From assembly GCA_951406725.2 (NCBI GenBank), contig OX597819.1:61132001-61196000 (forward strand): a DNA stretch of 64,000 nucleotides, given 5' to 3'. Made by a program: the position numbers and the translations under genes. The notes below the pieces were generated by a model. It saw nothing but the letters and a program-made list of their open reading frames with translations. It did not search any database and had not been told where the DNA came from. The number at the start of each line of letters is the position of its first letter. The first letter of the stretch is position 1. This document shows positions 21,879 through 55,138 of this stretch, one piece after another. This DNA comes from Octopus vulgaris (lineage: Eukaryota).

Positions 21879-21923
21879 ACAGTGACTTTCAATTTTCGGC
21901 CAGCTAAGCCATCATCGGATTGT
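21879..21923 (-). ncRNA. Minimal hammerhead-like motif with CCGATGA core
   Basis: Minus strand reads acaat CCGATGA tggc ttagctg gcc GAAAA ttgaaa GTC actgt. Confidence 0.55.
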
Positions 21924-22758
21924 GCATTAAATTAATCTTGGCTTTATTCAGTGTCTGTTGACAGAAATTTTTTTTTAAGATTGGCGAGGGTCTGTTGAAT
22001 GGTAAATAGGCTTTAAGATGGATTATGTTGAAGAGATGTTGTGAAGAAATCTTTATTGATTTAATTTGGGGTTATGTTATTGTTCAGAATTTATTCATGC
22101 ATATAGAACTTTGTAAACAATTGTGTATATTTAGGTGTGTCAGCTTAGGGTCATAGAATTGCCTTTTTTTTAAATAGTTCACAAAAAGGAAGTGGGTTGA
22201 TACCTACTTACTTCCTTCGTTGAAAAATATCTGTATGCAAGGGGTAAAGATGCATATTTATAACGAAAATATCATAGGCAGAATACGTGAGTTTAATATA
22301 TTTGAGAGAGTGTGATAAAAACTCATGGGTAACACTACAAAAGCAATCGTTATCGCTTTATGTGAGAGTTTGTGTATATTTATGTGTGCGCCTATGTGTG
22401 TAGGGAAGACTGTGTGTGTGACCATCTCACTGGGAATATATGTTTGAGATTATGCGTACATTTCTATACAAGTGCGCATGCGCTTGTACGTGTATTGTTT
22501 TGTTTGCTATTTTGAATATATGGATTGTCCCAACTTAAAACATGTGCTTGGAATAATAATATAAGCATTAGAAGTTTATAGCTTTTAGCAGTGTTACCGT
22601 ATGTATTTACCTGTAAATATGTGCATACGTGTGAGTACCTGTACGTGCATGCACATGTGTATATGTTCTTGTGTGTGTCAATAGTTAGCATAACCACTTG
22701 ATTAGAGCATACCGTAAGACGGTATGTGTGATTATGCGTGTTTGTATATGTATATATA

Positions 22759-22918
22759 GGTGCAGGGGTGGTTATGTGGTAAGTAGCTTGCTTACCAACC
22801 ACATGGTCCCGGGTTCACTCCCACTCCGTGGCACCTTGGTCAAGTGTCTTGTACTTTAGCCTCGGACCGACCAAAGCCTTGTGAGTGGATTTGGTAGGCG
22901 GAAATTGAGACGCCCACC

Positions 22919-22970
<52 letters not shown>

Positions 22971-23178
22971 GTCTCTGTGTTTGTCCCTCGCCATCGCTTG
23001 ACAACCGATGTTAGTGTCTTTACGTCCTCGTAACTTAGCGGGTTGGCAAAAGCGACCGACAGAATAAGTACTAGGCTTACAAAGAATAAGTCCTGGGGTC
23101 GATTTGTTCGGCTAAAAGTGGTGCACCAGCATGGCCACAGTCAGATGACTGAAACAAATAAAGGAATAAAAAAAGAAT
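22759..23178 (+). mobile_element. SINE family B, full-length with internal (TA)n
   Basis: Head, body and tail match the other family B copies. Confidence 0.9.
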
Positions 23179-23192
23179 GTATATATATATAG

Positions 23193-23427
23193 CATTATAA
23201 TATAATGCTGGCCCGCCTCGTCCGATCACTTTGTTGTCAATAATATATTTGCCAGTAATACATTGGGATTTATTTCCTGTTAGCACAACAAATTCTACAG
23301 TTCCATATGTGAGAGATGAGGAATTATGTACATTATTTATATTATTTACATTTGACGGGCATATGGCGAAGCGGTTAAGAGCCCGGGCTACTAACTCAAA
23401 GATTCCGAATTCAATTCCAGGTAGTGA

Positions 23428-23472
<45 letters not shown>

Positions 23473-23630
23473 TAACATCGGGAAAATACCTTAGGAATGA
23501 GAACCCAGGTTCGAAATTCCCTCAGGACACCTGATGAAGGCTGGAGAGTACATCAGCCGAAACGTGTGTTAACAACAAACAAGAGGAGGACGAATATCCG
23601 TCAAATGTAAATAATGTAAATAAAAAAAAT
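23193..23630 (+). mobile_element. PLE-derived insert: inverted 3' tail + tRNA-like head + (AAT)n + hammerhead
   Basis: Homologous to the 3' region of the PLE at 60787-61428; inverted repeat TTATTTACATTTGACGG (23342-23358) / CCGTCAAATGTAAATAA (23598-23614). Confidence 0.8.
23526..23570 (+). ncRNA. Minimal type I hammerhead ribozyme (cleavage-site nucleotide deleted in this copy)
   Basis: gacac CTGATGA aggctg-gagagtacat-cagcc GAAAC GT gtgtt. Confidence 0.75.
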
Positions 23631-23916
23631 TCTGTCTGCTCCCAATTACGTACACATTCACAAATACACACACACACAAACACAAATACGTATACATACA
23701 TGTTTGCATGTATATGCAAGTGTCTATATGAGTATAGGTGCGGATGGGTGAATACGTACCATCTGAATGATCACGCTGCCGGCGCCCGTGTATATATAAA
23801 AAATATTCTTATACATACACACATTTATACATACATACATACATACATACATATGTAAAGATAGATAGATAGATGAGTATAGACAAAACTAGAGAATGAG
23901 TGGCAGAGAGAGAGAC

Positions 23917-23953
<37 letters not shown>

Positions 23954-24406
23954 GACAAAGAGAGAGAGACACACACAGAGAAAGAGAGACAGAGAGAGAG
24001 AGAGAGACATAGAGAGAGAGAGACCGAGAGAGAGAGAGGAATATATGCAGCTGTTAAGTGCATGTTCGTGTAACCATTGATGGTTTGTTAAATGGAGGAG
24101 GAGAGATAATAAGCATGTAAATTGACGGGTAATTAAGTAATTAGGGAAATAAGACTGAGACATATATTGTGCCTTAGCTACTGTCAGTCGTTCGGGTAGA
24201 TAAGTTTAGAGGCAAAATATATGCTGAGAGAGAGAGAGAGAGAATTAAAGTTAAATACTGATAAAAGACAGTTAAATATATGTACGCGTGATAAGGTATA
24301 TACATACGTTATACATACACACACTATATATGTATGTGTATATACATACGTATATATTTTACGTATATACATATTTGTATGTATGCATGTTTATAAATGT
24401 ATATGC

Positions 24407-24437
<31 letters not shown>

Positions 24438-25063
24438 TGTATGTGTATATATATATCTATATATAAATATATATATGTAAGTGTGTGTGTGTATGTGTAT
24501 GTACGTATGTATGGTGCTATTTACGTTAGCACACAACCAATATTTAGAACTTCATGTACATCCTTATTTATCGAAAGATAAAAACTACAATGACAACTCA
24601 CGTATTACAATCCTAGTTTTCTTTCACTGGTCGCCACTGTTAGAAAGATCACACATTGCTTACAGACAGAACAAAGCTAGAGAGACGGTTCATAAATTAT
24701 ATGTCAACTTCCATGTATTTCAGTGGAGATAAAGTGCAGTATTGGTTTGAATCTCCGAGGAGGCGAAAATCTTGAAAATATACTTTGCCTGGATTGCACA
24801 TTTCGTTCAGTAGTAAGTCCTTGATAATATTGTTATCATTTCACTTTACCAAATTCCCATGCCCCTATGATAGACACATGCATAGCTATCTTCCATAGAC
24901 ATAAATAGTGCAACAGGTTTAGGAGGTTCCAACTAACTTGTAACTAAATACCCTATCTTGCATACATCATGCAGGGATTTGACTCCACAAAACTATCTGA
25001 AGCGTGACGCCCTCCAAGGAAGCTTGTTAGTCTACTGTAAATTCATTCACACTTCTGGGAATG

Positions 25064-25260
25064 TCTACTACAAATGTGGGAAATTCTGTCTGTGGGTGTG
25101 TATGTGAGGTTGTTAGCTAACTCCTACATCGGTTTATCGATTTTGATGAAACTTGACACGTGAGTAGAACTCATGTCAGGAAACCCCATGGCATATTCAG
25201 ATTGTTAATAGGGCCCCTGGAAGAGATCCTTATATATATATCTAATATATTTTATTTTAA
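25064..25260 (+). mobile_element. Possible Helitron 5' fragment
   Basis: TCTACTAC start, TGTCTGTG tract and AACTCC...CGATTTTGATGAAACTTG, a pattern typical of non-autonomous Helitron 5' regions. Confidence 0.35.
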
Positions 25261-25520
25261 AGACCAAGGGAAATTACACATTCGCCCCTGGAAGGGATCC
25301 TTATATTTGGTAAAAATCAAATTAAGTATGCTTATTTCTTAGTATTTGAACTGTTAGAATTATTTTCGCAATCTATCCAGTACAACCCTTAAACAAGTAA
25401 ATAGTATTTTCCTAAACAATAGATCCACTTATTTCGGTCAGTGATTTATTCACTAACATACAAACAAAAAATGATGACTATGGCGATGAAGATACTGTAT
25501 TTATTGCAAACGTATATATA

Positions 25521-25910
25521 GGTCAGGAATGGCTGTGTGGTAAGTAGCTTGCTTACCAGCCACATGGTTCCGGGTTCAGTCCCACTGCGTGGCACCTTGG
25601 GCAAATGTTTTCTACTATAGCCTCGGGCTGACCAAAGCCTTGTGAGTGGATTTGGTAAACGGAAACTGAAAGAAGCCCTTCGTATATATGTGTATATGTT
25701 TGTGTATCTGTGTTTGTCCCCCCAACATCACTTGACAACCGATGCTGGTGTGTTTACGTCCCAGTAACTTAGCGGTTCGGCAAAAGACACCGATAGAATA
25801 ATTACCAGGCTTACAAAGAATAAGTCCTGGAGTCGATTTGCCAGACTAAAGGCGGTGCTCCAGCATGGCCGCAGTCAAATGACTGAAACAAGTAATAGAG
25901 AGTAAAGAGA
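25521..25910 (+). mobile_element. SINE family B, full-length
   Basis: Near-consensus copy. Confidence 0.9.
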
Positions 25911-26087
25911 TCATCAGTAAATACTGTATTTGATGGCGTGCCCCACCACCAATTCCAATGACGCATATTCAGGGAAAGTGAGCGTCAGGGACAAAATCCG
26001 TTGATGGGAGGACGAGCTTTGTATTTACGACATGGGGAGATTTTTCGAGACATGTTTTTGGAAAAGGAGATCGCGCTATTATAAAAA

Positions 26088-26601
26088 TCTATATATATAT
26101 AACTGTAGTTGTGTGAGTGTCTGTCCCCTTCGATTTAGATTCCTAACTACTCCCACATTTTGCGGTGCAGTTTAACCAAATTCGGGTATCTTATAGTCGT
26201 GATTCATATCGAGCCCGTCTGAGTATTAGCGCGCGTCTACGATGAGTCTACGATTTAAAAAATAATTTAGCATAATTTTTTATTCCATTTTAATGCATAA
26301 TTTTTCGTGTGTCGATGGCGGCGGAGTTGGCGTCCATGGTCATACCTGCACCTGTGTTGCTTCTCCCCCTTCTTCCCTCCCTCGTGAAGCTGTGGGGAAG
26401 GGAGTGTAAGGAAATCAACGTCGTAAAGCGTTGTCAAGGAGACCAGCGTTGTTTTAGAAGAACGACTTCATGGCTTGAAGACACCAAAATAGAAATGGCT
26501 GAGAAAGCCCGAATTGGCATCTATAAGGGAAGTAACTCTCTAAAAATGCTTATATAGTTATTTCCCTTACAAACCCGAGCAACGCCGGGCGATACTGTTA
26601 G
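26088..26601 (+). mobile_element. Non-autonomous Helitron, apparently complete (514 bp)
   Basis: A|TCTATATAT 5' end; 3' hairpin CCCGAGCAACGCCGGG then TTAG|T (CTAG variant); sits between A and T with no TSD. Confidence 0.75.
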
Positions 26602-26789
26602 TAATAAATAAATCAATGAATATATGAATAAAGTACCGGTTTGGCGGTTAAGTAGTGTGTCTGATACCTATATGATTATTTCTGTTGCAGTCAGACAGTG
26701 AAATTTCATTATTGTTATTTAAAGAACAATTAAAAATCAAATAAAATCAGGAGCAATTCAGTGCATAAACTTCCACACCAATCCATATA

Positions 26790-27009
26790 CGCTGACACAC
26801 ATAAACGCACGCGCACACATACACTCGAACGCATGCATGCGAGCTCGCATACACACACAAACACACATATATGTATGTAAAACCTGTGGATAGCTGTGCA
26901 TATACATATGTAACCGTTTATATGGATGCGTGTATACATATATATACATACATATATATACATATATATATACATATATATGGATATATATATGTATACG
27001 TATACACAT

Positions 27010-27054
<45 letters not shown>

Positions 27055-27167
27055 CATTTGTAAATACATACGTTTGTGTACATACATCCACAAATACACT
27101 ACATATATGAATATAGACCAAGATGTAGACAACTGTATGTAAATAGATATGTATATATGTGCATTTA

Positions 27168-27211
<44 letters not shown>

Positions 27212-27470
27212 TGTATATATACATACGTATGTATGTATAAACGTGTACGTATGTACATATGTACGTATAAACGTGTACGTATGTACATATGTACGTATAT
27301 ATGTACATATATACATACGTATGTATATATGTACATATACGTATGTATATATGTACATATATATGAATACGTATGTATATATATGTATATATATATATAT
27401 GAATGTAAAAATGCATATACATAAATACGCATGTATATACGGAAATACATACATTCGTACACATATTTGT
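26790..27470. repeat. Degenerate (TA)/(TACA)/(TACG) microsatellite field
   Basis: Visible directly. Confidence 0.9.
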
Positions 27471-27956
27471 GTCTGTGTTTGGTGGCTGTGGGTGTATAAA
27501 CATGAAAATAATACCAAATGCGAGATTGCAAACAACAAGAAAAAAAATGAGAAAGAAGATGCTCAAATTATTCTCCATGCAAAGATCTTTACTTTCTCTC
27601 TCCCTTTTCGCAGACAAAATGATTTCTGGTCAGTTCTGCGGTTGACGCCAAACCAACTCAAGAGATTCTTCCTCACACTTCAAGTAGCCGTGCTTTCTGA
27701 CAGTTAATTATATCGATTTGCTCTTATTGATCTGCTTTGTTTAAACTCCAATCTCATTTTTCAGGCAGGTATATTATCTACACACACAGACACACACACA
27801 TATGTCTACATGCATAATCACACACATATATACTCATACAATCACACGCACACACAGTCACATATAGAAATATATATATATATATATGTATAAATATACT
27901 TTGTAAATATATACCTACATACGTATACATTCAAATAAATATATTCAAATATACTT

Positions 27957-27990
<34 letters not shown>

Positions 27991-28054
27991 GGTTTCGGCC
28001 AGTAAGGGCCCATATATATGCATCCATACATGCACTTACTTGCATATAGGCATA

Positions 28055-28098
<44 letters not shown>

Positions 28099-28484
28099 CA
28101 CACATATACACGTGTGTAGTGTGCGCGCGTGCGTGTGTGCATATGTGTGTACCTTACTGTTGCTGGTGGTTTATTCTTTTAGCCTTAAGTGATCTTCAAA
28201 AGCTGATGCGATTCACTTCAGTATTGGGGTCTAGAATATGTGATATGCCAGGTAGTGAATCTAATTGTTTTATATTTATTGTCTGTAATTCGGGAACAGA
28301 AATTACTGACAAGTCTTTGCTCAGTTGGAAAATAAAGGTTGGACGTAAATGATTGTACGTATATCTATTCCTATGTGTGCATGTATGCTTGTGTATATGT
28401 GTGTATATATGAAAGTAAGTATGTATGTATATACGTATGCATGATGTGTGTACATAAGAATGTATGTATTTAAGTGTTTATATA

Positions 28485-28642
28485 TCATCATCATCGTTTA
28501 ACGTCTGTCTTCCATGCATGCAAAGGTAGGATGGTTGATAGGAGCCGGCCAAGTAGAAAACTACCATAGGCTACCGTCTGTTTTGGCGGGGTTTTTGCAG
28601 CTGGATGCCCTTCCTAACACCAGCCACTCTGCAGTGTGGACT
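28485..28642 (-). mobile_element. SINE 3' fragment with Meta-like domain and (ATG)n tail
   Basis: Minus strand reads GGTGTTAGGAAGGGCATCCAGCTGCAAAAA...GTTAAACGATGATGATGA. Confidence 0.6.
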
Positions 28643-28646
28643 ATAT

Positions 28647-28935
28647 ATATTCATTGTTGTGTCTGGGGAGAATAATTTTCTTTTTTATGCCTTATAATTT
28701 AACACACTCACCGGTAAAATTTCCACTTATTTCTTATTTTGAAAGTCAAAACTATTGAAAAGGTTGCAAAACGCAACGGAAATTTTAGGAAAATAAAAAT
28801 AAAAAGCGGAAATTATACCGGTGAGTCTGTTAAAGTATAAGGCACAAAAAGAAAATGACTATCCCCTGACACAACAGAATATGCTTCCAACACACGAACT
28901 CATAAAGAATCTTGCAAACCAAATCCAAAAACGAA
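28647..28935 (+). mobile_element. Fold-back insert, probably PLE-derived (arms about 28647-28740 and 28790-28882)
   Basis: About 93-bp imperfect inverted arms, short TA tracts on both sides and a hammerhead-like spacer. Confidence 0.65.
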
Positions 28936-29148
28936 ATATATATACATATATATATGCGAATGTATGTTTGCATATATGTATGTATTAGTGTGTGTGTGTA
29001 TGTATGGGGTGGAAGGGGAAACCACTCTTTCTACTTATATTTATTTCACCATATTTTATGCAAATTCTTCATTTCATTCGGCCGAAGAAAAAAGTCTAAA
29101 AACTTTGCCATATTAAAAACGTACAAACATAAAATAATTCATATTATA

Positions 29149-29362
29149 CAATAATCCTTCGAATATCGCGGGTGTTACGTTCCAACCCGCGATATGTGAA
29201 ATTCCGCGAAGTAGAAACAGTACTGTATATATAAACATTTTAAAAAATATTTTTATAATTTGTATATATTTATTTTATTAATGCAAAACATCACGGAGGA
29301 ATCGACGTAAGCTTAAATAATAAACCGCGATAGGTGAACCACGATATGGCGAGGGATTACAG
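29149..29362. mobile_element. pogo/Tigger-type MITE
   Basis: TA|CAATAATCCTTCGAATATCGCGG ... CCACGATATGGCGAGGGATTACAG|TA: imperfect TIRs with TA TSD. Confidence 0.75.
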
Positions 29363-29377
29363 TATGCAATGCGTAAG

Positions 29378-29800
29378 ACGGCGAGCTGCCAGAATGGTTC
29401 GCATGCCTGACCTGGACAAGATACTTACGGCACAGACAGATTATGTAGATAAACAGACACCTGTCTTTACGTCTTGAGTTCACATTCCGTCAAAGTATGT
29501 GCCTAAAGTAGAAAGGTTTATTATATACAATGCATAAAGTCGCCTATGTTAGTGGTTATGGTGTTCAGCTTACAACCATAATGTCGTAGGTTCAAATCCC
29601 AGACCGGGTAGCTTATGCTCCTTAAGTAAGCTTGTTGCTCCAACCTTTTCAGCTGCAAATGAGTTCTCTACTGGAGCATCCCTCTCTCTCTCTCCCTCCA
29701 GCTGTGACACTATGTCAAAAGGGTCGACGAGTAACGAACGTGTTGGCAGCTAAAACAATTAGCGAAAGCATGGTACATGTTCATTCGCAGATGACTGCTG
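29378..29800 (+). mobile_element. Diverged family A SINE (29378-29515) followed by another tRNA-derived SINE (from about 29540)
   Basis: CGGCGAGCTGCCAGAATGG head; second head AGTGGTTATGG...AGGTTCAAATCCCAGACCGGG. Confidence 0.6.
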
Positions 29801-30615
29801 GCTTTTCCCTTCTGTATATGTCTAGTGACGCAAATGATACATACTTCAATACTACTGTTAATAATGGAAGTTTAGTGAATGTCAAAAAATAACAGAACCA
29901 TAGCTGAAATACCTTGAATTATCTATCCATCTCAGACCCGTGGGCTTATGTCGAACAGCTGCTGTCACGTGTTGGACGAGTCTGGTTGTCAACCGAGTGT
30001 ATCGTAAATATTGCCCCGTCACCTTTCTTTAACCGGGAAGGCAAGGCAGTTTTGATCGTAGTGGTAGCTATGGCGAAAGAATGTGTATGGTGGACTCGTT
30101 TGAAAGGCTTAGAGAAAATACTTTCCATTCTGGCTTACCTCTCATCAACTTTTTCAAGTATTACTTGAAAAGGAAGGTGAGAGTAGAGAGGGAAGTTTTA
30201 TCTACAGAAAAATTTAACAAAAGATGGGTGAATGCAACAAAGATGGTACGCATGAATGACGGATCCACTTTGAACATAAACCTATAAAACAAAAAGAGAA
30301 AGGGAATTTCGCAGGTTTTCCTTTCTACAGATAACCTTAGTCAGTGTTATATTTTGCTAAACTGGCAAAATGACCATTCCTAAATACAACATGTTAAAAC
30401 GTTATCTTGTTATTTCTTTGTGTACACGTCCCAAAACGTTTCGATCCTTATTAATCGGTTTTGAAAAGAAAAATTCTACATTGCATCGTCCCCTCTGCGT
30501 TTGGCTCTGCGTGACCTAATAAAGAAATCCATATGTGTGTGTGCCACTTAATATTTTGTCTAACATGCTAACGATTTTGCTAGCTCACCACCGGCTTCAC
30601 GGAATATAATATATT

Positions 30616-30831
30616 ATTTTCTACTCAAGGTATAAGGCCCGAAATTATTTATGGTGGGGGGAGGGGGCAGTCCATTAGATAGACCCCAGTACGCAACTTA
30701 ATTTATCGACCCCGAAAGGATGAAAGGCAAAGTCGACCTCGGCGGAATTTGAACTCAGAATGTAAAGGCAGACGTAATAGCGCTAAGCATTTTCGCCCGG
30801 CGTGATAACGTTTCTACCAGCTCGCCGCCTT
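30616..30831 (-). mobile_element. SINE family A with 14-bp TSD
   Basis: GAATATAATATATT at 30602-30615 and 30833-30846. Confidence 0.9.
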
Positions 30832-31227
30832 CGAATATAATATATTGATGTAAGCTAAGGTAATCTCAAGGTATGTTTCGGAAAAGATGAACGCAAGAAT
30901 GATGCGAACGGAAGGAATCGAGCTGGTGTAGCCAGTTCTGATGAAAAAAAGAAGAAAAAGAGGTGGGAAAAATGTGAAAACAACCGGCGGGTTGATTGGA
31001 ACCTCGATAACCAGTCATCCGATTCCATTGCATTCTATGCTTTCATTGCGATTTTTTTTTCCGATTTCATTCGATTTTATTTGTGAATTTTTAATCTAGA
31101 TTTAAATTGTAACAATCATCATATGTTGTGGTGTCCATGTTTGTCCCCCTCTATGTACGTCTTTTATAGACAAATAAAGAAAATATAAGCTAAGGTAAAC
31201 CTTTAAAAGCCGCATTAGATCTCGTTA

Positions 31228-31443
31228 GGCGGCGAGCTGGCAGAATCGTTAGCACGCCAAGCAAAATGCTTAGCGGCATTTCGTCCGTCTTTACCTTCTG
31301 AATTCAAATTCCACCGAGGTCGATTTTTGGATTTTATCCTTTCTTGATAAAATAAAATAAGTACCAGTTGAGTACTGGGGTCGATGTAATCTACTTATCC
31401 CCTCCCCTGAACTTGCTGGCCTTGTACCAAAATATAAAACCAA
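31228..31443 (+). mobile_element. SINE family A
   Basis: GGCGGCGAGCTGGCAGAATCGTTAGCACG head. Confidence 0.85.
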
Positions 31444-34039: not shown

Positions 34040-34195
34040 TTTTGGCACAAGGCCAGCAATTTTAAGGGGAAAAGAATTTCGATTACATTGATCCCAGCAC
34101 TAAACTGGTACTTTATTTTAACGACACCGAAAACATAAAAGACAAAGTCGACCTCGGCAGCACTTGAAATAAAAACGTAGATAGACAAATGAAAA
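34040..34195 (-). mobile_element. SINE family A fragment
   Basis: TTTGGCACAAGGCCAGCAATTT...CAAAGTCGACCTCGGC. Confidence 0.7.
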
Positions 34196-35080: not shown

Positions 35081-35115
<35 letters not shown>

Positions 35116-35834: not shown

Positions 35835-35866
<32 letters not shown>

Positions 35867-36062
35867 CCGGAGTAAGCACATAGATGTGAAACAAGGTGGA
35901 AAAAGGAGTACTCAAATACCAGAGGTAGAGTAATATGCTTTATTTAAAAGCAGCAGAAATATAACAGAAATATAACATTTCGTTAAAACTGTCCGACGAA
36001 CGGGAACGTGAAACTCCGAGTCACAGCTTTTGTCATATTTCTGCTGCTTTTAAATAAAGTAT
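35867..36062 (+). mobile_element. PLE-derived fold-back insert within (TA)n
   Basis: Arms GCTTTATTTAAAAGCAGCAGAAATATAACA (35937-35966) / TGTCATATTTCTGCTGCTTTTAAATAAAGT (36031-36060), HHR in the spacer, (TA)n on both sides. Confidence 0.75.
35985..36031 (+). ncRNA. Minimal type I hammerhead with CCGACGA core
   Basis: aaaactgt CCGACGA acg-ggaa-cgt GAAAC tccga GTC acagcttt; stem III is near-palindromic. Confidence 0.75.
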
Positions 36063-36401
36063 ATATATATATATATACAGGGTGGCCCAAGATTATTCAA
36101 AGAAGAGTAGGTCAGACTGCAGAGAACGATGCAAACTCTGCACCAAGCATGCTGGAATTCAACCTGTTTGAACCTGACTTTTTGGTTTGTTGATACGTCT
36201 GTGGTGATAACCAGATAGGATTTTTATCTTAATAACTGTTTCGCAAGTGTAATTTTGTAATTTCACCGATTTTTATCTGAGCAATAATGAATAATGCACG
36301 TATTGTGTTAGATATTTATATTAAACATACATACAAACACATATATATATGTGCTTGTGTGTGTGTATATATATATATATACACACACACAAGCATACAT
36401 A

Positions 36402-36457
<56 letters not shown>

Positions 36458-36939: not shown

Positions 36940-37175
36940 CGCCACGTGCTGGAATCGAAACCGAATTGGAGTATCTAAATTTGGGGAGTAGAGTGGAGGC
37001 TTATTTCTTACTTTATAGCGCTCATATCTTACTAAGATACATTAAAAGTGCGAACAAGTGATCTGATGCCGCCACGTAGCGGAATCGAAATCGAATCGAA
37101 ATATCTACATTTTTGGAGCTTGCTTCTTATTTTACAGCGCTCATATCAGATTAAGACACATTAAAATGCCAAGTG
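36940..37175. repeat. Diverged direct duplication, period about 130 bp
   Basis: CGCCACGT..GGAATCGAAA..GAAT..TATCTA...AGCGCTCATATC...ACATTAAAA at 36940 and 37070. Confidence 0.75.
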
Positions 37176-39135: not shown

Positions 39136-39319
39136 ACTAAATCATGGACTAACACTGAACTATTTCTTGAATTCCTAGTGAGAAATTGATGGAAGGAGGG
39201 GAGGGAGATTGTGTGCCATGGATGCCTTTCCTCCAAAACACATTAGAGGCTGAGACGAAGTGAAATGATACCACCCAGGAATCGAAACTGCGTCGCGGAT
39301 TCGGTTTGGCAGGAAATTC

Positions 39320-39890
39320 TTTTATCTTTTACTTGTTTCAGTCATTGGACTGAGGCCATGCTGGGCTAACGCCTTCCGGAGTTTAGTCAAACAAGTCTTC
39401 CTCAGTACTTAATTTTTAAAGTCCGGCAGTCACTGTCGCTGAACTGCTAAATTATGGGGACGTAAACAAACCAGCACGGGTTAGCAAGTGGCGTGGATGG
39501 GGGTGAAAATAAACGCAAACACAAAGACTCTCGTACCCCTACACACACATATACACACACAGGGTGGCCCAAAAGTATGTTTACAGTTATCATGTAGGTA
39601 CTTTAAATTTCTTTTAAAACATTTTATTACATTTACATTTCTATATTACACCCTGTATATAAACCCCCTATACGCGCGCGCGCACACACATACACACACA
39701 CACATCTATCTCGATATACACACACACTACAGGTTCTACACATTTTCCGTCAACCAAATTCATTTAAAAGGCATAGGCCGACCTGCAGCTATAGCAGAAG
39801 TTACGTATCTAGGTGTCGCGAAGTAGGATGGAACGCAAAACCCCGTGGTTTCAACGCGAACTTCTTTACCACACAGCCATTCTTGCCTCT
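39320..39890 (-). mobile_element. Diverged SINE family B containing a deleted Tc1/mariner MITE
   Basis: Tail TTTTACTTGTTTCAGTCATTGGACTG and head TTACCACACAGCC. Confidence 0.75.
39560..39655. mobile_element. Internally deleted copy of the 18717-18942 MITE
   Basis: CAGGGTGGCCCAAAAGTATGTTTACAGTTATCATGTAGG...CACCCTG|TA. Confidence 0.75.
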
Positions 39891-40239
39891 ATTGTCTATT
39901 TCCTTGCCTTCTTTCTTTCGTTTTATTTTTTTTTATACACAAAACATTTTTTACTTCTGCGACCAAGAAATAGAGACCACCTAATGTTTCAATGTACATC
40001 ACTAGCCTGAGTATGGAAGGCTGGATGGACTTAAATCATAAACGTTAATTAAGACCTGTCTAGGTGGCAAATAGAGACGAAAATATTGGAGTTGTGCATA
40101 AATAGGTATTTACTTAAAAGATAAAATGATATATCCAAGTGTGGTAGGAGGAATATATTCCGTCTACTCTCACCATTGCCCACAATCAGTGAAAGTAAGT
40201 ATTGCCAACTAAAGTGAATGTATGAATTAACTCTACACT

Positions 40240-40483
40240 CACCTCTCTCTCTCTCATACGCTTATATATATATATACATATATATACATATATCCATACA
40301 TACATACATACATACATAGATAAATATATCCATCCGTACACGTATACATAAATACATATATAAAAATAATAATTACACACACACATATATATATGTATAT
40401 ATATATATATACATATATATATGCTTATATATATACCTACATACATATATATACATACATACATACACACACATATGTGTGTG

Positions 40484-40521
<38 letters not shown>

Positions 40522-40626
40522 TATATACATACGTACATATACACACACACATATATACATACATACATATATATATATATACACACACACACATATATAC
40601 ATACATACATAGGCATGTGTGTGTGT
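40240..40626. repeat. Compound TA/CA microsatellite
   Basis: Visible directly. Confidence 0.9.
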
Positions 40627-41107
40627 GGCTTTACTCCGAAGTTAAAACCATAACTATTTTTTTTCTGTACATGAACTGAAGTATTTTATAAGAAGTTGCC
40701 AGGTGTCACCGCTATTAAAAAGATGGAAATAAAGAAATCTGGCTGGCATCTGTACAAAATACCTCAGCTGATTTCAAGACAGATTCCTTATGTCTTGCCG
40801 CCAAAGTCAACTTGTTTAACAATGTCTGCCAAAACACCGCGAGGAATACTTATTCAATTGGTTGGTTCATTTAGTCACGTACGAGACTGATGTGAATGAT
40901 TTCCAACATTAAAAACGGTATCCATTTTAGTGCTTTAAACCACACACACACACACACAGCCAAAAACATACATGCATGCATGCATATATACATACAAACA
41001 TACATAGATAAATACATACATATGTGTGTGTGTTTGTGTATAAAACATATACATAAATCGCATGAGAAAATGTAGCATACCAATGTATGTATTTTAACTA
41101 TAATTAT

Positions 41108-41305
41108 GGTGCAGCTATGGCTGTGTGGTAAGAAGCTTGCTTTCCAACTATATGGTTCTGGGTTCAGTCCCCACTGCATGACACCTTCGGCTACTATCCT
41201 CTACTATAACTCCGTATCGATCAAACCCTTCTTAGTGTAGTCAGAAGATAGAAACTGAAAGAAGTCCTGCGCGTGCGCGTAAATATATATATACATAGAT
41301 ATGTA

Positions 41306-41345
<40 letters not shown>

Positions 41346-41570
41346 TGCACACACACATGTGTGTGTGTTTATTTGTCCTCCACCGCCGTTTGATAAACGG
41401 TTTTGGTTTGTTTATGTCCCCGTAACTTTTGGTTCGTCGAAAGACACCGACAGAATAGCTACCGGGCTTACAAAAAATGTAATGGGGGTCAATCTTCTCA
41501 GCTAAAACCCTTCGAGGCGACGCTCGAACATGGCTGCAGTCCAATGATTAAAACGCATAAACAATGAAAT
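41108..41570 (+). mobile_element. SINE family B, diverged
   Basis: TGGCTGTGTGGTAAGAAGCTTGC head, internal (TA)n and CATGGCTGCAGTCCAATGA tail. Confidence 0.8.
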
Positions 41571-41605
41571 ATACATGAGCAAACTAAATCTTCTGTCTGC
41601 ATGTG

Positions 41606-41652
<47 letters not shown>

Positions 41653-41655
<3 letters not shown>

Positions 41656-42346
41656 AATTGAGATAGGAGTTGTAAATGCAACCCTCCATGGGATAACATA
41701 TATCCAATATACTGCTAGTGAAGTACCCAACAAAGTTAATACATAAATGTTAAGGATTGCGATGCAATCAATTCATTTACTGTATTATATGGGCAAAGGT
41801 AAAATGATTTACCACAAATTACTAATACAAGATAAGAAAATGGAGAAATACATCTAAATCAAATATCAATTACCAGATAATACTCAATCACATACTTTAT
41901 TAAACCACCACATAAGAGACTGTAGGGTTAAACATAAAAAAGCAGAACAAATCAGTGTACACAAAGGAATGTACATAAAAAAGTGTACATAAAAGAGTAA
42001 TGTTGTATAATAAGTAGAATATATATAAAAAAGAGAATATAAATACAAGTAAATATAAATATAAGTATAGATTACATCTTACAGCTGTTTCGGCCATGTA
42101 GATAAGTATGTCTCATTTTACCAATATTAGCCTTTTATGGTAGGTCAATATATAGATATAAATGAGACATTTATACAACATTACTGTTTTATGTACACTT
42201 TTTTATGTACATTCCTTTATGTACACTGATTTGTTCTGCTTTTTTATGTTTAACCCAACAGTCTCTTATGTGGTGGTTTAATAAAGTATGTGATTGAGTA
42301 TTATCTGGTAATTGATATTTGATTTAGATGTATTTCTCCATTTTCT
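41653..42346 (-). mobile_element. PLE-derived fold-back insert between (TA)n tracts (arms about 41835-42010 and 42171-42346)
   Basis: About 175-bp near-perfect inverted arms; the minus-strand spacer holds a 3' half hammerhead, ggcc GAAAC agct GTA agat (42075-42095). Confidence 0.75.
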
Positions 42347-42370
42347 ATATATATATATATATATATATAT

Positions 42371-42486
42371 CTTGCTTCCCGACCACATGGTGCGTGACAC
42401 CTTGGGCAAGTGTCTTCTACTACAGCGTTGCGCCGACCAAAGCCTTGTGAGTGGATTTGATAGACGGACACTGAAAAAAGCCTGTC

Positions 42487-42529
<43 letters not shown>

Positions 42530-42662
42530 TGTGTGTCTGTGTTTGTCCCCCTACCATCGCTTGACAACTGATGTTGGTGTGTTTACGTCCCCGTAAAATG
42601 AGACCAATAGAATAAGTACTAGGCTTACAAAGAATAAGTCCTGGGGTCAATTTGTTCGACTG
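42371..42662 (+). mobile_element. SINE family B, truncated
   Basis: CACCTTGGGCAAGTGTCTTCTAC...AAGAATAAGTCCTGGGGTC. Confidence 0.8.
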
Positions 42663-43186
42663 CATGACATCCTAGAAAATAAAAAGAAATAATTTTCGAA
42701 GAGTACCAGTCTCCAAATTCTCTAGCATTAGAATTATTGTACGCGCGTGCACACACACACACACACACGCCTGCCTGCCTGCCTATTTATTTATGTATGT
42801 ATGTACCTGTCTATTTAGCTAGCTAGCTAGCTAGATAGATAGATAGCTTTACGTGAAGAATACAGAGAAGTAGAAAGCCGCTGTGAGAATCACAAACAGA
42901 ACCGGAAGCCACACATTTGTACATGTTCCTGACGGCATGTATAACCGAGATAAACTTAGGGTAAATGTCAAAGATTCATTTCCTGATTGAAACCCTTTCC
43001 TTTACGGCCCTTTACATTATTTGCTTGCATCTCTGTCAAACCAACGTTTGATTAATGAGAAATGGCAGCGAAATCTCCGTCAACTCACAATAGGACACTC
43101 TGGGCAGTGTCGTCCTAGATACACTATCTCTGGAAATCAAACGTGAAGATCACGTTGGAGCGCCAAGAATGACATCGTAGAGTACC

Positions 43187-43417
43187 TATTTCTTTACTAC
43201 CCACAAGGGGCCAAACACAGAGGGGACAAACAAGGACAGACACAGGTATTAAGTCGATTACATCGACCCCAGTGCGTAACTGGTACTTAATTTATCGACC
43301 CCGAAAGGATGAAAGGCAAAGTCGACCTCGGCGGAATTTGAACTCACAACGTAACGCAGACGAAATACCGCTAAGCATTTCGCCCGGCGTGCTAACGTTT
43401 CTGCCAGCTCGCCGCCT
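43187..43417 (-). mobile_element. SINE family A, full-length monomer with 12-bp TSD
   Basis: TCGTAGAGTACC at 43175-43186 and 43418-43429. Confidence 0.92.
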
Positions 43418-43903
43418 TCGTAGAGTACCCCGACTTGTTGAGGGTTGTTTCTAGACAGTATTGACGAGCAACCTATTTGTAAGTTTTCTTCGCGTTAAGA
43501 GCTCGATCTGGTTTCAATCCATAGTTAAAACTAATTAAATTCTTTTCTGTTGCTTATGTCCCTGAGAAATGCATTCACTATGCCCTATGCAAACTCTCGT
43601 CTTTGCACGTACGTATATGCATATGCGTGTTTATAATACACTCCCTATTTTTAGGTCACTTTAAAGAAAAACCTTTGATTCAAAAACACTCGATATAGAC
43701 TCGATATTTGGAATGACCAATTTTAAATAATGTTGGATATTACTCACAAAGTATTGGAATCTTACATGTATACCGTTCTGCCTGAAAAATGGATCTACAA
43801 ATTCAATATCCCGACATATCTCACATCTATTTTCTTTCCTCCATCTCACTCTCTATTTTGTATCATATCTAAATTAACTGTTACTTAACTATCCTCTCAC
43901 ATA

Positions 43904-43951
43904 GTCTCCGATGAAGGGATATAATAAATATCCTGGAAACAGATGTAAGAC
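43904..43951 (+). ncRNA. Minimal type I hammerhead with CCGATGA core
   Basis: gtct CCGATGA agggatat-aataa-atatcctg GAAAC agat GTA agac. Confidence 0.7.
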
Positions 43952-44012
43952 CTGTCTATAAAAGGCTATAAACTCAGCCTTGGTTTTTTATCTCATTACG
44001 AAAAAAAGTTTT

Positions 44013-44443
44013 GGATCTTTTCGGTTTGAACGGCAGTTTTTAACATAATTTCTAGATAACTAAAAAATTTTAAACTTCGTATACTGGTAGAATGTGTTTA
44101 TAAAATATCTTTTTCTCTTGGCTTTATTGAGAAAATTCTATAGTTTGTAAGATATTTGTTGTTTTTTTCTTCAATTTCTGCAATTTCAACCAATCAATGA
44201 CGTCCATTGAGGTAAACAACATTCTGTGCCGTATGAATATATCCCTCGTTTAAGAAACAGATTGGGTTTATTTACATTTGTGAAGAAAAAAAGATACCCT
44301 TCCTCCCACCCCACCCCTAACCCTAACAAACCTTAACCCTAAAATAGATTGAAATGCAATAGATCGATACTAGGGTTATAGTTATTGGTGACAATTTCAT
44401 ACGACACCGCTAGAAAAAACTGCCGTTTAAACCGAAAAGATCC
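44013..44443 (-). mobile_element. Second copy of the Merlin-like MITE, opposite orientation
   Basis: Same TIRs, internal CCCTAA repeats, flanks AAAGTTTT / AAATATTT. Confidence 0.85.
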
Positions 44444-44489
44444 AAATATTTATATTCATGTATATTAGTTTCGAGGATATTCAAGGAGA

Positions 44490-44902
44490 TAGGTTTGTTG
44501 ATTACATGGACCCCAGTAAGTGCTCTACTGGTACTTATTTTATCAACCTCTGATGGATGAAAGGCAAAGTCGACCTCGACGAAATTTGAACTCAGAACGT
44601 AATGACAGAGAAAATGCCACTAAGCATTTAACGGTTCTCTTACTTTACCGCCTTATGTGAATTTATATATATTTCTTTACTACCCACAAGGGGCTAAACA
44701 CAGAGGGGACAAACAAGGACAGAAAAAGTGATTAAGTTGATTATATCTACCCGAGTGCGTAACTGGTACTTAATTTATCGATCCCGAAAGAATGAAAGGC
44801 AAAGTCGACCTCGGCGGAATTTGAACTCAGAACGTAACGGCAGACGAAATACGGCTACGCATTTCGCCCGGCGTGCTAACGATTCTGCCAGCTCGCCGCC
44901 TT
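44490..44902 (-). mobile_element. Old family A SINE (44490-44654) plus young family A SINE (44671-44902) with 20-bp TSD
   Basis: CCTTATGTGAATTTATATAT at 44651-44670 and 44903-44922. Confidence 0.9.
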
Positions 44903-45395
44903 CCTTATGTGAATTTATATATTCAACTTTCGAAGCAGCTATACATTTGTACACATTTACATATCAACTGTGTGTATTTCTATTTAAAAAAGGAATAGTG
45001 ACTTATTGAGGCTCACTTTACCATCGAATACCCCTTCCCTTCCCTCAGTTGCAGTCTGGGAGTGACGGGTTCTAACGACAGGCTGTGATTTGTAATCAAG
45101 CCGTTCAAATAACGCTCTATAATTACCGTATGTTTGTTTCTGTGTGTGTGTCTGTATGTGTGTGTATTTTATCTAATGATTTAGTTTCGTGTGTTTTCGC
45201 CTTATAACCGAAGAATACTGTGCTTTATTTGCATTTCATAGTTCATTGACAAGTTAATTAAAGCGTGCCTGAAGTAACTTCTTTCGTTCCAGGTTGAGAC
45301 GGAGCCAAAAATTGAGAACAACACTTCCAAACATGTAACTTTATCATCTCCAACAACACTAGCGTGTTCTGTAGCGATATAATGGTTTCTATTGG

Positions 45396-45400
<5 letters not shown>

Positions 45401-45435
<35 letters not shown>

Positions 45436-45527
45436 TGTATGTATGTATATACGCATATATACGTGTATATATATGTATGTATGTATATATGTATGTATGT
45501 ATATATATATGTATGTATATATATATG

Positions 45528-45558
<31 letters not shown>

Positions 45559-45901
45559 GTATGTATATATATGTATATATATATATGTATATATATGTAT
45601 ATATATATATGTATATATGTATGTATATATATATATATGTATGTATATATATATATATGTATGTATATATATATATGTATGTATATATATATATATATGT
45701 ATGTATATATATATGTATGTATATATATATGTGTGTATGTATATATATGTATGTATATATATATATGTGTGTATGTATATATATGTATGTATATATATAT
45801 GTATGTATATGTATGAATATATGTATATATATATATGTATGTATATGTATGTATATGTATGTATATATATATGTATGCATGTATATATATGTATATATAT
45901 G

Positions 45902-45943
<42 letters not shown>

Positions 45944-46045
45944 CATATGTATGTATATATACATATGCATGTATGTATATGTATGTATGTATATGTATAT
46001 ATATATGTATATATATATATATGTATTTATATATATTTATGTGTG
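45401..46045. repeat. About 640-bp (TA)n/(TATG)n microsatellite
   Basis: Visible directly. Confidence 0.95.
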
Positions 46046-46249
46046 TCCTCATTGTTTTAGATGTTGTTGTTGGCGCTATCGTTGTTTTGCCTTAAGTCAG
46101 CTTCTTAGCTTTCCTATCTCAGTCTATATTATACAATATTTCAATCGTTTTTTTCTGAAGATGTTAGGTTATGTTATTTGAGGGTGATTTTGATGTTGAT
46201 ATTTAGCTCATCGGCTGATCACACTGAGGCTCAATACCGTTAGCTTAAA

Positions 46250-47023
46250 CTCGTTTTGGCAGAGTTGACCTCACCAAAGAGCTGGAGCAAATGCTAAAAA
46301 GCGTTTTTTCCCGTAGCTTCAATGATTCTGCCAGTGAGCCGCCTTGATAAACATGATTATTCGGTACAAAGACCAGGAAGTTGTTGGGGCTGGGGCTTAA
46401 GTCGATTACATCGATCCCAGTGTCCAACTGGTACTTATATTTATCGACCTCGAAAAGATGAATGGCAAAGTCAACTTCAGCAGAATTTGAACTCAGAACA
46501 TGAAGACGGACGAAGAACCGCAAATTGTTTTCCTCGGCGTGCTAATGATTCTAGTAGCTCGCTGTCTTTAAATATATCTTCTAAATACTTGACTATTCTT
46601 TTCTTATTTCTTTATTGCCCACAAGAGGCTAAACATAGAGGGGAAAACAAGGACAGACAAAGGGCTTAAGTCGATTATATCGACCCCAGTGTGTAACTGG
46701 TACTTAATTTATCGACCCCGAAAGAATGAAAGGCAAAGTCGACCTCGGCGGAATTTGAACTCACAACGTAGCGGCAGACGAAATACCTATTTCTTTACTA
46801 CTCCCAAGGGGCTAAACACAGAGAGGACAAACAAGGACAGACAAACGGATTAAGTCGTTTATATCGACGCCAGTACGTAACTGGTACTTAACTTATCGAC
46901 CCCGAAAGGATGAAAGGCAAAGTCGACCTCAGCGGAATTTGAACTCAGAACGTAACGGCAGACGAAATACTGCTAAATATTTCGCCCGGCGTGCTAACGT
47001 CTCTGCCAGCTCCTCGCCGCCTT
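46250..47023 (-). mobile_element. Stack of family A SINEs: two old copies plus a young dimer (46600-47023)
   Basis: Dimer junction GAAATACCTATTTC at 46780 with 184-bp period; TSD-like TAAATACTTGACTATT / TAAATATTTGAATATT. Confidence 0.85.
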
Positions 47024-47289
47024 TAAATATTTGAATATTGAGAAATATAATAAACTTTATTTTTGTGTTTTTTCATTTTATTTAGGAGATCTTTGGACAA
47101 AATGCCTAGAGATGTCAGCTGCCGCTCATTAGGTTTAGAGTTAATATCCCAACAAGATCCTTTTTCTTCTTGCGGAGGTAAATAAAATGAAGCACGAGTC
47201 AAGTTCCAGGATCGATTCAATTGATTACCAGCCTGTGCCAATGTGAAGAGGTTTGACACGGTATAGGGGATCCCAAACTCTCTCAGTTT

Positions 47290-47425
47290 TATTTTCTGAG
47301 TTCAAATAACGTCGAGGTCGACTTTGCCTTTCATTCTTTCGGGGTCGATAAAATAAGTACCAGTTGAACACTGGGGTCGATGTAATGGACTTAATCCGTC
47401 TCCCGCAAAATGTCAGGCCTTGTGC
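47290..47425 (+). mobile_element. SINE family A, 5'-truncated
   Basis: GAGGTCGACTTTGCCTTTCATTCTTTCGGGGTCGATAAAATAAGTACCAG. Confidence 0.85.
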
Positions 47426-47715
47426 TTATTTAAGAGTAGAAAGAATATTAGATTGATAAATTGGTTCAAATATTTGGAGCCGAGCCGAAAACCTTGAAAA
47501 CTCATTTTGACATTCATTGCAAATCATCTGGGAATCTTACCGTTGAAAAGCTGGCGCCATATTTGGGGGCCGAGAACTCACCCTTAAAAAGTTTCTGTGT
47601 TTTTTTGTATGTATTGAATTTCAAACTCCTCTATAACCATTTGTTATTAAATATGCATGTGATCAATTAAAAAAATCACACATACACACATACATAAGTA
47701 GGACACACATTCATA

Positions 47716-47764
<49 letters not shown>

Positions 47765-47875
47765 CTAGATAGATAGATATAGATATATACGTGTGCGTGC
47801 GTGTGTATGTTTATGTGCATGAATGTGTGTGTATATGTATTTATGTACCTGTATGTGGAGGTACTTATGAGCGTG

Positions 47876-47912
<37 letters not shown>

Positions 47913-48280
47913 GCTTGCGTGTGTGTGGGTGTATGTGTGTGGGTGGGTGGGTGTATGTGTGTGGGTGGGTGGGTGTGAGTGCACGACACCGGAAATGTCT
48001 CATTCAAAGCTTCCTTTAATTAGAAGCTAAAAAGTGGCCGGCCCTTGTGAGATGACTTGTGTTTTGTTGACTGCAATTAAAATTACTTGTGCACCAATCT
48101 GAAAGAAAAATGCAGTTATGCGTATCGGCAACATTAACTGAAAAGAATTATATATATAATATAATATAATATAATATAACATAATATTATATTATATTAT
48201 ATTATATATAAATATACATGCACACACACACATACACACATATAGGGACATATATACATGTGTGTGTGTGTATGCGTGCA

Positions 48281-48555
48281 TGATGATGCATGACCTAGTG
48301 GTTAGGATGTTCCAACCACTATCATAAGATTGTTGTTTCGATTTCTGGATCGGGCGGAGTGTTGTGTTCTTGAATAAAGTACTTCATTTCACGTTACTCC
48401 AGTTAACTCAGCTGTAAATTCACTCCTGCAAAAGTTGTGAAGCTGACCCTGCGCCAACTGGCGTTCCAATCAAGTGTGAGTGATGTAATTTCAGCCATTT
48501 ATAAGCCATGGAAACCGGGTTAAACCGCGACCTTATGAGCTGTAGGACTCATGAC
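48281..48555 (+). mobile_element. tRNA-derived SINE, diverged (V/CORE-like body)
   Basis: TAGTGGTTAGG head, GTGTTCTTGAATAAAGTACTT body and ATGGAAACCGGG tail. Confidence 0.6.
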
Positions 48556-48607
48556 AGAAATTAAGATGGATACTGTGTGTGTGTATTTGTATGTGTGTAT
48601 GTATATG

Positions 48608-48657
<50 letters not shown>

Positions 48658-48696
48658 TAAAAAATGGAGTTAACGCAGGTTTAAACAAGTATTTTT

Positions 48697-48782
48697 ACTT
48701 TCGACACATGTTTCGAAAATTCCACTGATACTATTCAAAAGAATAAATGGTATAAACAATGCAATCTTCTCTTCGGGAAAGT
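48697..48782 (-). ncRNA. Type I hammerhead, CCGAAGA core, long stem II (left arm copy)
   Basis: Reverse complement of 49607-49692. Confidence 0.75.
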
Positions 48783-48983
48783 GAAAAAAACGAAACTCGT
48801 CAATACGACATTTTAGCAAAAAATGATGGATTTGTATAGCGATAGACCGAACGCTATTAATATTGTTTAAAAAAACGTTATATAATATAACGTCATAAGT
48901 AGCTAACAGAAAGAGTAGGGATATTAATAGTGAATGTTAAATATAAAGGAAATTAAAGTTTAAATTATATATAATGATAGAGA

Positions 48984-49319
48984 CTACTTATATGCACTAA
49001 ATGTATGTTTCTGCCAATGCTTACATCTGTATGCTCGTTCTATAACCGTGTTTACTAGAGTATTTTTAGAAAAAATAATGAAAAATAGCTCAGAATTGCA
49101 GAGAAGACAGAATTTCTTGCCTTTGTCATATGGTATCGAAATTGAGAGGATCAACCATTCTAAATGAAATTGTTCATTGTGGTCTTTTAAATCCCAAATC
49201 AGTTTGCTGAGACCGGTACTATTCCGTTTATTTCTATCCCTAAATGTTGAGTAATGGATAGAAATTCTTTTAGATAACTCTAACGATGTGCTTCCAATGT
49301 AAAATCGTACTTTATTACT
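48984..49319 (-). pseudogene. PLE GIY-YIG endonuclease C-terminal fragment; 111 open codons with no start, absent from the ORF track
   Basis: Manual translation: SNKVRFYIGSTSLELSKRISIHYSTFRDRNKRNSTGLSKLIWDLKDHNEQFHLEWLILSISIPYDKGKKFCLLCNSELFFIIFSKNTLVNTVIERAYRCKHWQKHTFSAYK*. The YIG-T, R-x3-H, LS-x2-IW-x-LK and CxLC..CxH motifs resemble Neptune-type PLEs. Confidence 0.85.
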
Positions 49320-49606
49320 CTAAAAATACTCTAGTAAACACGGTTATAGAACGAGCATACAGATGTAAGCATTGGCAGAAACATACGTTTAGTGCATATA
49401 AGTAGTCTCTATCATTATATATAATTTAAACTTTAATTTCCTTTATATTTAACATTCACTATTAATATCCCTACTCATTCTGTTAGCTACTTATGACGTT
49501 ATATCATATAACGTTTTTTTAAACAATATTAATAGCGTTCTGTCTATCGCTATACAAATCCATCATTTTTTGCTAAAATGTCTTATTGACGAGTTTCGTT
49601 TTTTTC

Positions 49607-49692
49607 ACTTTCCCGAAGAGAAGATTGCATTGTTTATACCATTTATTCTTTTGAATAGTATCAGTGGAATTTTCGAAACATGTGTCGAAAGT
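49607..49692 (+). ncRNA. Type I hammerhead, CCGAAGA core, long stem II (right arm copy)
   Basis: actttc CCGAAGA gaagattgcattg...cagtggaattttc GAAAC atgt GTC gaaagt; perfect 6-bp stem I. Confidence 0.78.

Positions 49693-54196: not shown

Positions 54197-55138
<942 letters not shown>

What the first reader, a model, noticed from the sequence alone, without database searches (positions are those of the whole stretch)
21879..49692. Four unrelated hammerheads share a non-canonical CCGANGA (U4C) core
Seen: the HHR motifs at 21879-21923(-), 35985-36031(+), 43904-43951(+) and both arms at 48697-48782(-) and 49607-49692(+) have different stems but all read CCGANGA in place of CUGANGA. They keep GAAA, GUH and paired stems I and II. 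Established: U4 is a highly conserved core position. Inference: the same T-to-C change in four families, creating a CpG against the usual direction of decay and present in both arms of a young element, suggests a maintained variant core (attenuated, dimer-dependent or protein-assisted cleavage). Standard descriptors would miss it. I cannot say whether it has already been catalogued.
Basis: partly seen in the sequence, partly recalled or inferred. Interest (0 to 1): 0.72.

Follow-up and report, generated by a model that had tools for sequence, protein, structure and literature searches.

The report
Penelope hammerheads with inherited U4C core
Several large families of Penelope-type jumping genes in this animal genome pass on a self-cutting RNA motif with one normally fixed letter changed (C for U), likely because a slower cut costs them little; the change is known from viroids but was not found in print for these elements.

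Summary
Confirmed. Five motifs at four loci read CCGANGA and have the build of Penelope-type (PLE) type I hammerheads. C4 is inherited, not sporadic: it is the majority letter in all four families (17 of 29, 21 of 25, 26 of 29, 494 of 627 copies). In two families a U4 and a C4 sister subfamily coexist; in family D the C4 branch nests inside U4 relatives. In 1.4 Mb of evenly spaced genome samples, 37 motifs were canonical, 15 U4C and 11 A6U. So U4C is the most recurrent core change but not the only one: an A6U family has at least 15,487 copies. No family was seen fixed for a change at G5, G8, A9 or G12-A14. Limits: the two arms are one insertion, the 21.9 kb copy is decayed, the window also holds two U4 copies, and no cleavage was tested. 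Best reading: still-constrained, dimer- and probably protein-assisted ribozymes in which U4C is tolerated because PLEs copy uncut RNA. U4C is published for viroids, and this scan found it before in phages; I found no PLE report, but one key paper was not available.

The parts
21879..21923 (-). Family A type I hammerhead, C4 at 21917, predicted cut after 21884; this copy decayed (stem I mismatch, palindrome broken). Near the 3' end of an old repeat.
   Evidence: 17 of 29 best family copies C4, family form has perfect stem I and a perfect 10-nt palindrome
35866..36062 (+). Family B short fold-back repeat between (TA)n runs, carrying the hammerhead on one arm
   Evidence: inverted arms 35933-35969 / 36028-36064; ends read from the sequence
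35985..36031 (+). Family B hammerhead, C4 at 35994, short stem II with GNRA loop, near-palindrome in place of stem III, predicted cut after 36022
   Evidence: 21 of 25 aligned best copies C4
43904..43951 (+). Family C hammerhead, C4 at 43909, 7-bp stem II, GUA site, predicted cut after 43947; palindrome has one private change
   Evidence: 26 of 29 best copies C4
48651..49760 (.). Family D young PLE insertion: 668-nt 3' piece on the minus strand joined to an inverted 5'-truncated copy on the plus strand, beside (TA)n
   Evidence: 96-97% identical to the 3' end of a copy with RT and C-terminal GIY-YIG-type frames (L151)
48697..48782 (-). Family D hammerhead, left arm, C4 at 48775
49607..49692 (+). 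Family D hammerhead, right arm, C4 at 49614, 6-bp stem I, long stem II, predicted cut after 49686; the element runs 52-74 nt past the cut site
23526..23570 (+). Comparison: decayed canonical U4 hammerhead (family J), base 17 missing
60830..60880 (-). Comparison: second decayed canonical U4 hammerhead (family J); ends approximate

Best explanation
These are Penelope-type hammerhead motifs whose families inherit C at core position 4, and they likely still cut, more slowly and as dimers, with U4C tolerated rather than required. Shown: C4 is fixed in family masters; U4 and C4 sister subfamilies coexist; the palindrome in place of stem III is kept; D insertions include sequence past the cut site. 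Inferred: two pLTR motifs (one tandem transcript or two RNAs) pair through the palindrome to build stem III, probably helped by the element's protein; C4 weakens the CUGA turn and lowers the rate; because reverse transcription starts downstream of the cut site and uses uncut RNA, a slower ribozyme costs little, so this mild U-to-C transition reaches fixation again and again while catalytic and core-pairing bases stay constrained.
For: Family spectra: A C17/T9 with G5 G19/A8, the symmetric CpG decay of a C4-G5 master; B C21/T4; C C26/T3. D: 494 of 627 exact matches C4, G5 changed in only 8; 22 of 24 T4 copies carry a separate linked haplotype; C4 copies nest within U4 relatives. F family: 11 C4 and 9 U4 copies split by an upstream site (8 of 11 vs 0 of 9), G5 intact in 20 of 20. 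In 29 C4 copies of D, the five changes shared by 9 or more copies fall in loop II, base 11.1 (G-C to G-U), the palindrome centre, base 17 (C to A) and outside stem I, none in the invariant core. In 1.4 Mb, single core changes cluster at positions 4 (15 hits, 7 groups) and 6 (13 hits); each other kind of change has at most 2 hits. Literature passages: natural U4C lowers activity in vitro yet supports viroid infection (PMC3088659) or is said not to affect cleavage (PMC9608096); PLE hammerheads are weak and dimeric (PMC4209133); a PLE hammerhead needed the element's protein, and catalytic mutants did not affect insertion in vitro (PMC11167929).
Against: No cleavage or RNA-end data for any of these motifs. 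Five shared changes missing 10 core bases out of about 86 is expected about half the time, so the within-D test is weak. The descriptor only admits motifs with at most one core change, so doubly dead families are invisible. A6U, a change expected to be more damaging, is fixed in a family of at least 15,487 copies and A6G in a subfamily, which also fits loss of catalysis. C4 subfamilies outnumber their U4 sisters (494 vs 133; 11 vs 9), which would also fit selection. Copies of A, B and C were picked as best matches to the window copy, which favours C4; in the unbiased sample B was C8/T4 and the single A hit was T4. A coding region was tied to D, to C in only 1 of 30 loci, and not to A or B.
Confidence: 0.6

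Rival explanations
1. C4 is positively selected attenuation: slowing the 3' hammerhead spares the uncut RNA that serves as template, so C4 subfamilies out-copy U4 sisters.
For: C4 branch of D is the larger (494 vs 133) and spawned several later subfamilies. CpG decay keeps regenerating U4 copies (2 of 24 T4 copies have the C4 haplotype) yet C4 persisted. Insertions extend past the cut site. Uncut RNA is the dominant substrate in vitro.
Against: U4 is still the majority (37 vs 15; 5720 vs 219 in one slice that leaves out most copies of families A-D). Two sister comparisons are too few, and subfamily success can rest on linked changes. C4 copies were not significantly younger (1.0 vs 1.2 private changes per 125 nt, P = 0.10).
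Confidence: 0.2
2. The motifs no longer cut; the fold is kept as a structure (for example a protein-binding or dimerisation site) and the turn bases drift.
For: A6U and A6G are also fixed in successful lineages. Catalytic mutants did not impair insertion, and no RNA ends were found at the cut site for an anole PLE. Mutations in the CUGA turn gave low activity in a mutational scan (PMC9901934 passage). Naiad PLEs thrive without canonical hammerheads.
Against: G8, G12 and a non-G base 17 stay put while base 7 varies freely, even in the A6U family (base 7 C8/T7/A4/G2, neighbours 19-21 of 21 constant), which is the pattern of a catalytic core. U4C cleaves in viroids.
Confidence: 0.15
3. The window copies are sporadic mutants of U4 families, or chance look-alikes.
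For: U4 is the genome majority, and scattered C4 copies of U4 families exist (one search list).
Against: All four family majorities are C4; shuffles give 0.03 hits per window and no C4 hit in 3 shuffles of 1.4 Mb.
Confidence: 0.02
4. C4 arose once in an ancestor of all four families.
For: D and C are both tied to a similar GIY-YIG-type endonuclease (29% identity); coding regions of A and B are unknown.
Against: D's nearest relatives and four outgroup copies are U4; F has its own U4 sister.
Confidence: 0.03

Closest known systems
[quoted passage not shown]
   Same: Type I topology, short stem I, extra base after A9, palindrome at 15.2-16.2, location near the 3' end, inverted pairs 100-700 bp apart, dimer build.
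   Different: Their descriptor fixes 'cuganga' and all 56 representative motifs have U4; the only core variant reported there is U3-A8. Here whole families carry C4 (and others U6 or G6).
U4C (CCGA) hammerheads of viroids and viroid-like RNAs (passages in PMC3088659 and PMC9608096; the primary PLMVd paper was not held)
   Same: Same single substitution, natural, compatible with function.
   Different: There it is a rare variant in a quasispecies; here it is the majority state of retroelement families with hundreds to thousands of copies, about 30,000 copies genome-wide by rough extrapolation.
Protein-assisted hammerhead of the anole Poseidon PLE (PMC11167929, passages read)
   Same: PLE hammerhead upstream of the RT start sites; insertions copy RNA past the cut site.
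   Different: That ribozyme's position 4 was not checked here; the D element is a different, unassigned PLE lineage.
C-terminal EN+ Penelope-like elements (Craig et al. 2021, PMC8557442, passages read)
   Same: Family D: RT followed by a GIY-YIG-type domain, inverted 5'-truncated copy, 3' tail, (TA)n context.
   Different: Clade not tested; the endonuclease looks Nematis-like by recalled motif only.

Membership tests
Hammerhead ribozyme (type I) | Core C3-U4-G5-A6-N7-G8-A9 ... G12-A13-A14-A15.1 ... U16.1-H17 | tested here: not met
   All positions match except U4, which is C in all five motifs. U4C is an accepted natural variant, so they are filed as variant-core, not canonical, hammerheads.
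Hammerhead ribozyme (type I) | Stems I and II close the core | tested here: met
   B, C, D window copies; A only in the family form, the window copy has a stem I mismatch.
Hammerhead ribozyme (type I) | Site-specific self-cleavage after NUH | not testable with these tools
   No raw RNA reads were offered; no assay possible.
Hammerhead ribozyme (type I) | Rfam hammerhead model at gathering score | tested here: not met
   No match. The two U4 copies in the window were missed too, so the models do not cover these forms well.
PLE pLTR hammerheads (dimer type) | Palindrome in place of a stable stem III | tested here: met
   Family forms self-pair at -12.5 (A), -7.8 (B), -11.1 (C), -6.0 to -7.0 (D) kcal/mol.
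Penelope-like element, C-terminal EN+ | RT followed by GIY-YIG endonuclease upstream of the hammerhead | tested here: met
   Family D only: RT motifs read in the translation (YRDD) and downstream domain; Atlas hit to a GIY-YIG cluster at 0.95, family on 33% of members. Pfam gave nothing.
Penelope-like element, C-terminal EN+ | Same link for families A, B, C | tested here: inconclusive
   C: endonuclease remnant 1.3 kb upstream on the same strand in 1 of 30 loci (L109). A and B: none tied within 1.5 kb.
Penelope-like element, C-terminal EN+ | Inverted 5'-truncated copy, 3' tail, microsatellite target | tested here: met
   D at 48651-49760; many opposite-strand pairs; B is a fold-back between (TA)n runs.
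Nematis clade of PLEs | RT phylogeny and Zn-finger-like linker | not tested
   No reference sequences were fetched; resemblance is recalled.

The most novel reading that the evidence does not exclude
Penelope elements in this lineage repeatedly tune their ribozyme down by fixing changes in the uridine turn (U4C in at least six families, A6U and A6G in others), because a slower cut preserves the RNA template; about a third of the genome's intact hammerheads are then deliberate slow variants that the standard PLE descriptor cannot see.
Probability: 0.2. Interest if true: 0.75.

Novelty: new variant of a known kind. Interest (0 to 1): 0.5.

Why it matters
What PLE hammerheads are for is an open question. 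This genome offers natural matched pairs, U4 and C4 sister subfamilies almost identical elsewhere (D, F) plus a huge A6U family, that make the link between cleavage rate and transposition directly testable. It also shows that 'cuganga' searches undercount: 26 of 78 motifs in the sample were U4C or A6U, so some PLE groups scored as lacking hammerheads deserve a re-scan.

Tried and rejected
Rfam: the E-value scan listed only microsatellite-driven miRNA noise in the 150 rows shown of 308; gathering scan empty. The repeat finder and the ORF listing were swamped by microsatellites, apart from the D inverted pair. Pfam found nothing in the D frames or five homologues. An endonuclease hit near a B copy (L080) proved to belong to a neighbouring U4 element; hits near A copies were on the wrong strand or downstream. 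No RNA holder on record was listed, so expression and RNA ends are untested; contigs from four runs under other organism codes show both C and T at 49614 but say nothing on cleavage. Minimum-energy folds of single A, B, C motifs do not give the hammerhead fold, as expected for dimer-type motifs; not used as evidence. The idea that the U4 branch of D is older was not significant (P = 0.10); only tree nesting supports the direction, from FastTree without tested support. A binomial test left out the A6U hits and treats copies as independent; discarded. One search allowed only C4, so it gives no ratio. Papers not held: Lunse et al. on small PLE hammerhead variants, Ambros and Flores 1998, Seehafer et al. 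2011; the first could already report C4. Literature searches without a PLE U4C report. bioRxiv supplements were not seen; the Craig et al. supplement was cut when stored and only searched by term.
Full report
Setting. The window is non-coding, microsatellite-rich DNA of a 2.8-Gb animal genome (G000), probably a cephalopod: the only named homologue of the D-family protein is from Argonauta (41% identity), and the SINE resemblance is recalled. I call the four loci A (21.9 kb), B (36.0 kb), C (43.9 kb) and D (48.7-49.7 kb).

Observation. All five motifs read CCGANGA. A descriptor with position 4 free returned B, C and both D arms, against 0.03 C4 hits per shuffled window. A failed because this copy is decayed (stem I mismatch, broken 15.2-16.2 pair). 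The D arms are one insertion with 5 mismatches in 420 nt. Two decayed U4 hammerheads of another family also lie in the window, so C4 is 4 of 6 loci found (P about 0.06). The four families share no blastn similarity.

What they are. Each has the build described for PLE hammerheads: type I, short stem I, an extra base after A9, and a palindrome in place of stem III (PMC4209133). Family palindromes self-pair at -6 to -12.5 kcal/mol. [quoted passage not shown] C is tied to a similar endonuclease remnant in 1 of 30 loci. A and B are PLE-like by motif and context only.

Is C4 inherited? Yes. Among the 29 best-scoring other copies per family (of 1154, 437 and 3131 candidates, 40 scored each): A has C17/T9/A2/G1 at position 4 and G19/A8/T1/C1 at position 5, the symmetric decay of a CpG, against 14% background change; B has C21/T4 with 4 gaps; C has C26/T3. 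These samples favour likeness to the window copy. For D the count is free at position 4: 627 exact matches, 133 not C, so 494 C; G5 is changed in only 8, so the U4 copies are not mainly decay. 22 of 24 T4 copies carry their own linked haplotype and 2 carry the C4 haplotype. With 20 C4 copies taken from the list, the C4 copies nest inside U4 copies and four U4 outgroup copies (support untested; two C4 copies with foreign 5' sequence fall outside the clade). C4 copies were not significantly younger. Changes shared by 9 or more of 29 C4 copies avoid the invariant core, but five changes are too few to prove constraint. A fifth family, F, also splits into C4 (11) and U4 (9) copies with a linked upstream site.

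Is C4 special? In 140 evenly spaced 10-kb stretches (1.4 Mb), a descriptor allowing one core change found 78 motifs: 37 canonical (7 from one tandem array), 15 U4C in 7 groups, 11 A6U in one family, and at most 2 of any other kind; three shuffles gave about 2 hits each and none of these three kinds. In a genome-wide slice that leaves out most copies of A-D, U4 had 5720 matches, C4 219 and A6G 470, with controls of 65-79; the C4 list is led by one further family and the A6G list by one subfamily. The A6U family has 15,487 exact matches; in the first 100 listed, position 6 is U in 96 and position 7 is U44/A26/C19/G11 by hand count. So fixed changes cluster at turn positions 4 and 6. U4C recurs in the most lineages (A, B, C, D, F and the family), and none was seen fixed at G5, G8, A9 or G12-A14. 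The descriptor cannot see families with two or more core changes.

Mechanism. Shown: inheritance, repeated origin, kept palindrome, and insertions that run 52-74 nt past the cut site. From papers: PLE hammerheads cut weakly and as dimers; an anole PLE hammerhead cut only with the element's protein, its catalytic mutants did not affect insertion, and uncut RNA was the main template (PMC11167929 passages); natural U4C lowers activity in vitro but supports infection (PMC3088659), and another paper says it did not affect cleavage (PMC9608096); U4 contacts the phosphate between A6 and N7. Inferred: C4 weakens the turn and slows a dimeric, protein-assisted cut that the element needs only occasionally, so the mildest transition drifts to fixation (0.6). 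Rivals: selected slowing (0.2), non-catalytic relic (0.15), single origin (0.03), sporadic mutants (0.02).

Novelty. U4C is published for viroids, a CYGANGA descriptor exists (PMC13481778 passages), and earlier notes of this scan report it in phages (unchecked). The PLE catalogue of 56 motifs is all U4 and its descriptor fixes 'cuganga'; Craig et al. used the same string for core searches and also tried relaxed cores. Eight searches found no PLE U4C report, but the paper most likely to hold one was not available. Verdict: real, a new variant of a known kind, moderately interesting mainly for its scale and its natural sister pairs; activity untested.

Noticed in passing
G000, e.g. L177, L223, L245, L276; 15,487 exact matches: A very large family with a minimal hammerhead fixed for A6U; base 7 takes all four letters while the rest of the core is constant, and stem I co-varies with that of the related U4C family F. 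Possibly more surprising than U4C itself.
   Followed up: partly
G000, one search list: A subfamily fixed for A6G (most of the first 100 of 470 matches), with a canonical sister form.
   Followed up: no
G000, one search list (e.g. C1:2981341 and 2981888): A further C4 family in short tandem arrays of about 548-nt period, retrozyme-like.
   Followed up: no
L198 (359-nt period) and G000:C1:33099609-33105375 (545-nt period): Tandem arrays of canonical U4 hammerheads, retrozyme-like.
   Followed up: no
window 23526-23570(+) and about 60830-60880(-): Two decayed U4 hammerheads of a common repeat, not mentioned in the finding.
   Followed up: yes
L175, L230, L266 (family B): Loop II alternates between two GNRA tetraloops in a C4 family, a hint of kept structure.
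   Followed up: partly
window 54190-55140 and 45400-46050: Very long (TA)n-rich tracts, about 950 and 650 nt.
   Followed up: no
whole genome: Hammerhead density is high: 78 motifs in 1.4 Mb, roughly 150,000 genome-wide by extrapolation.
   Followed up: partly
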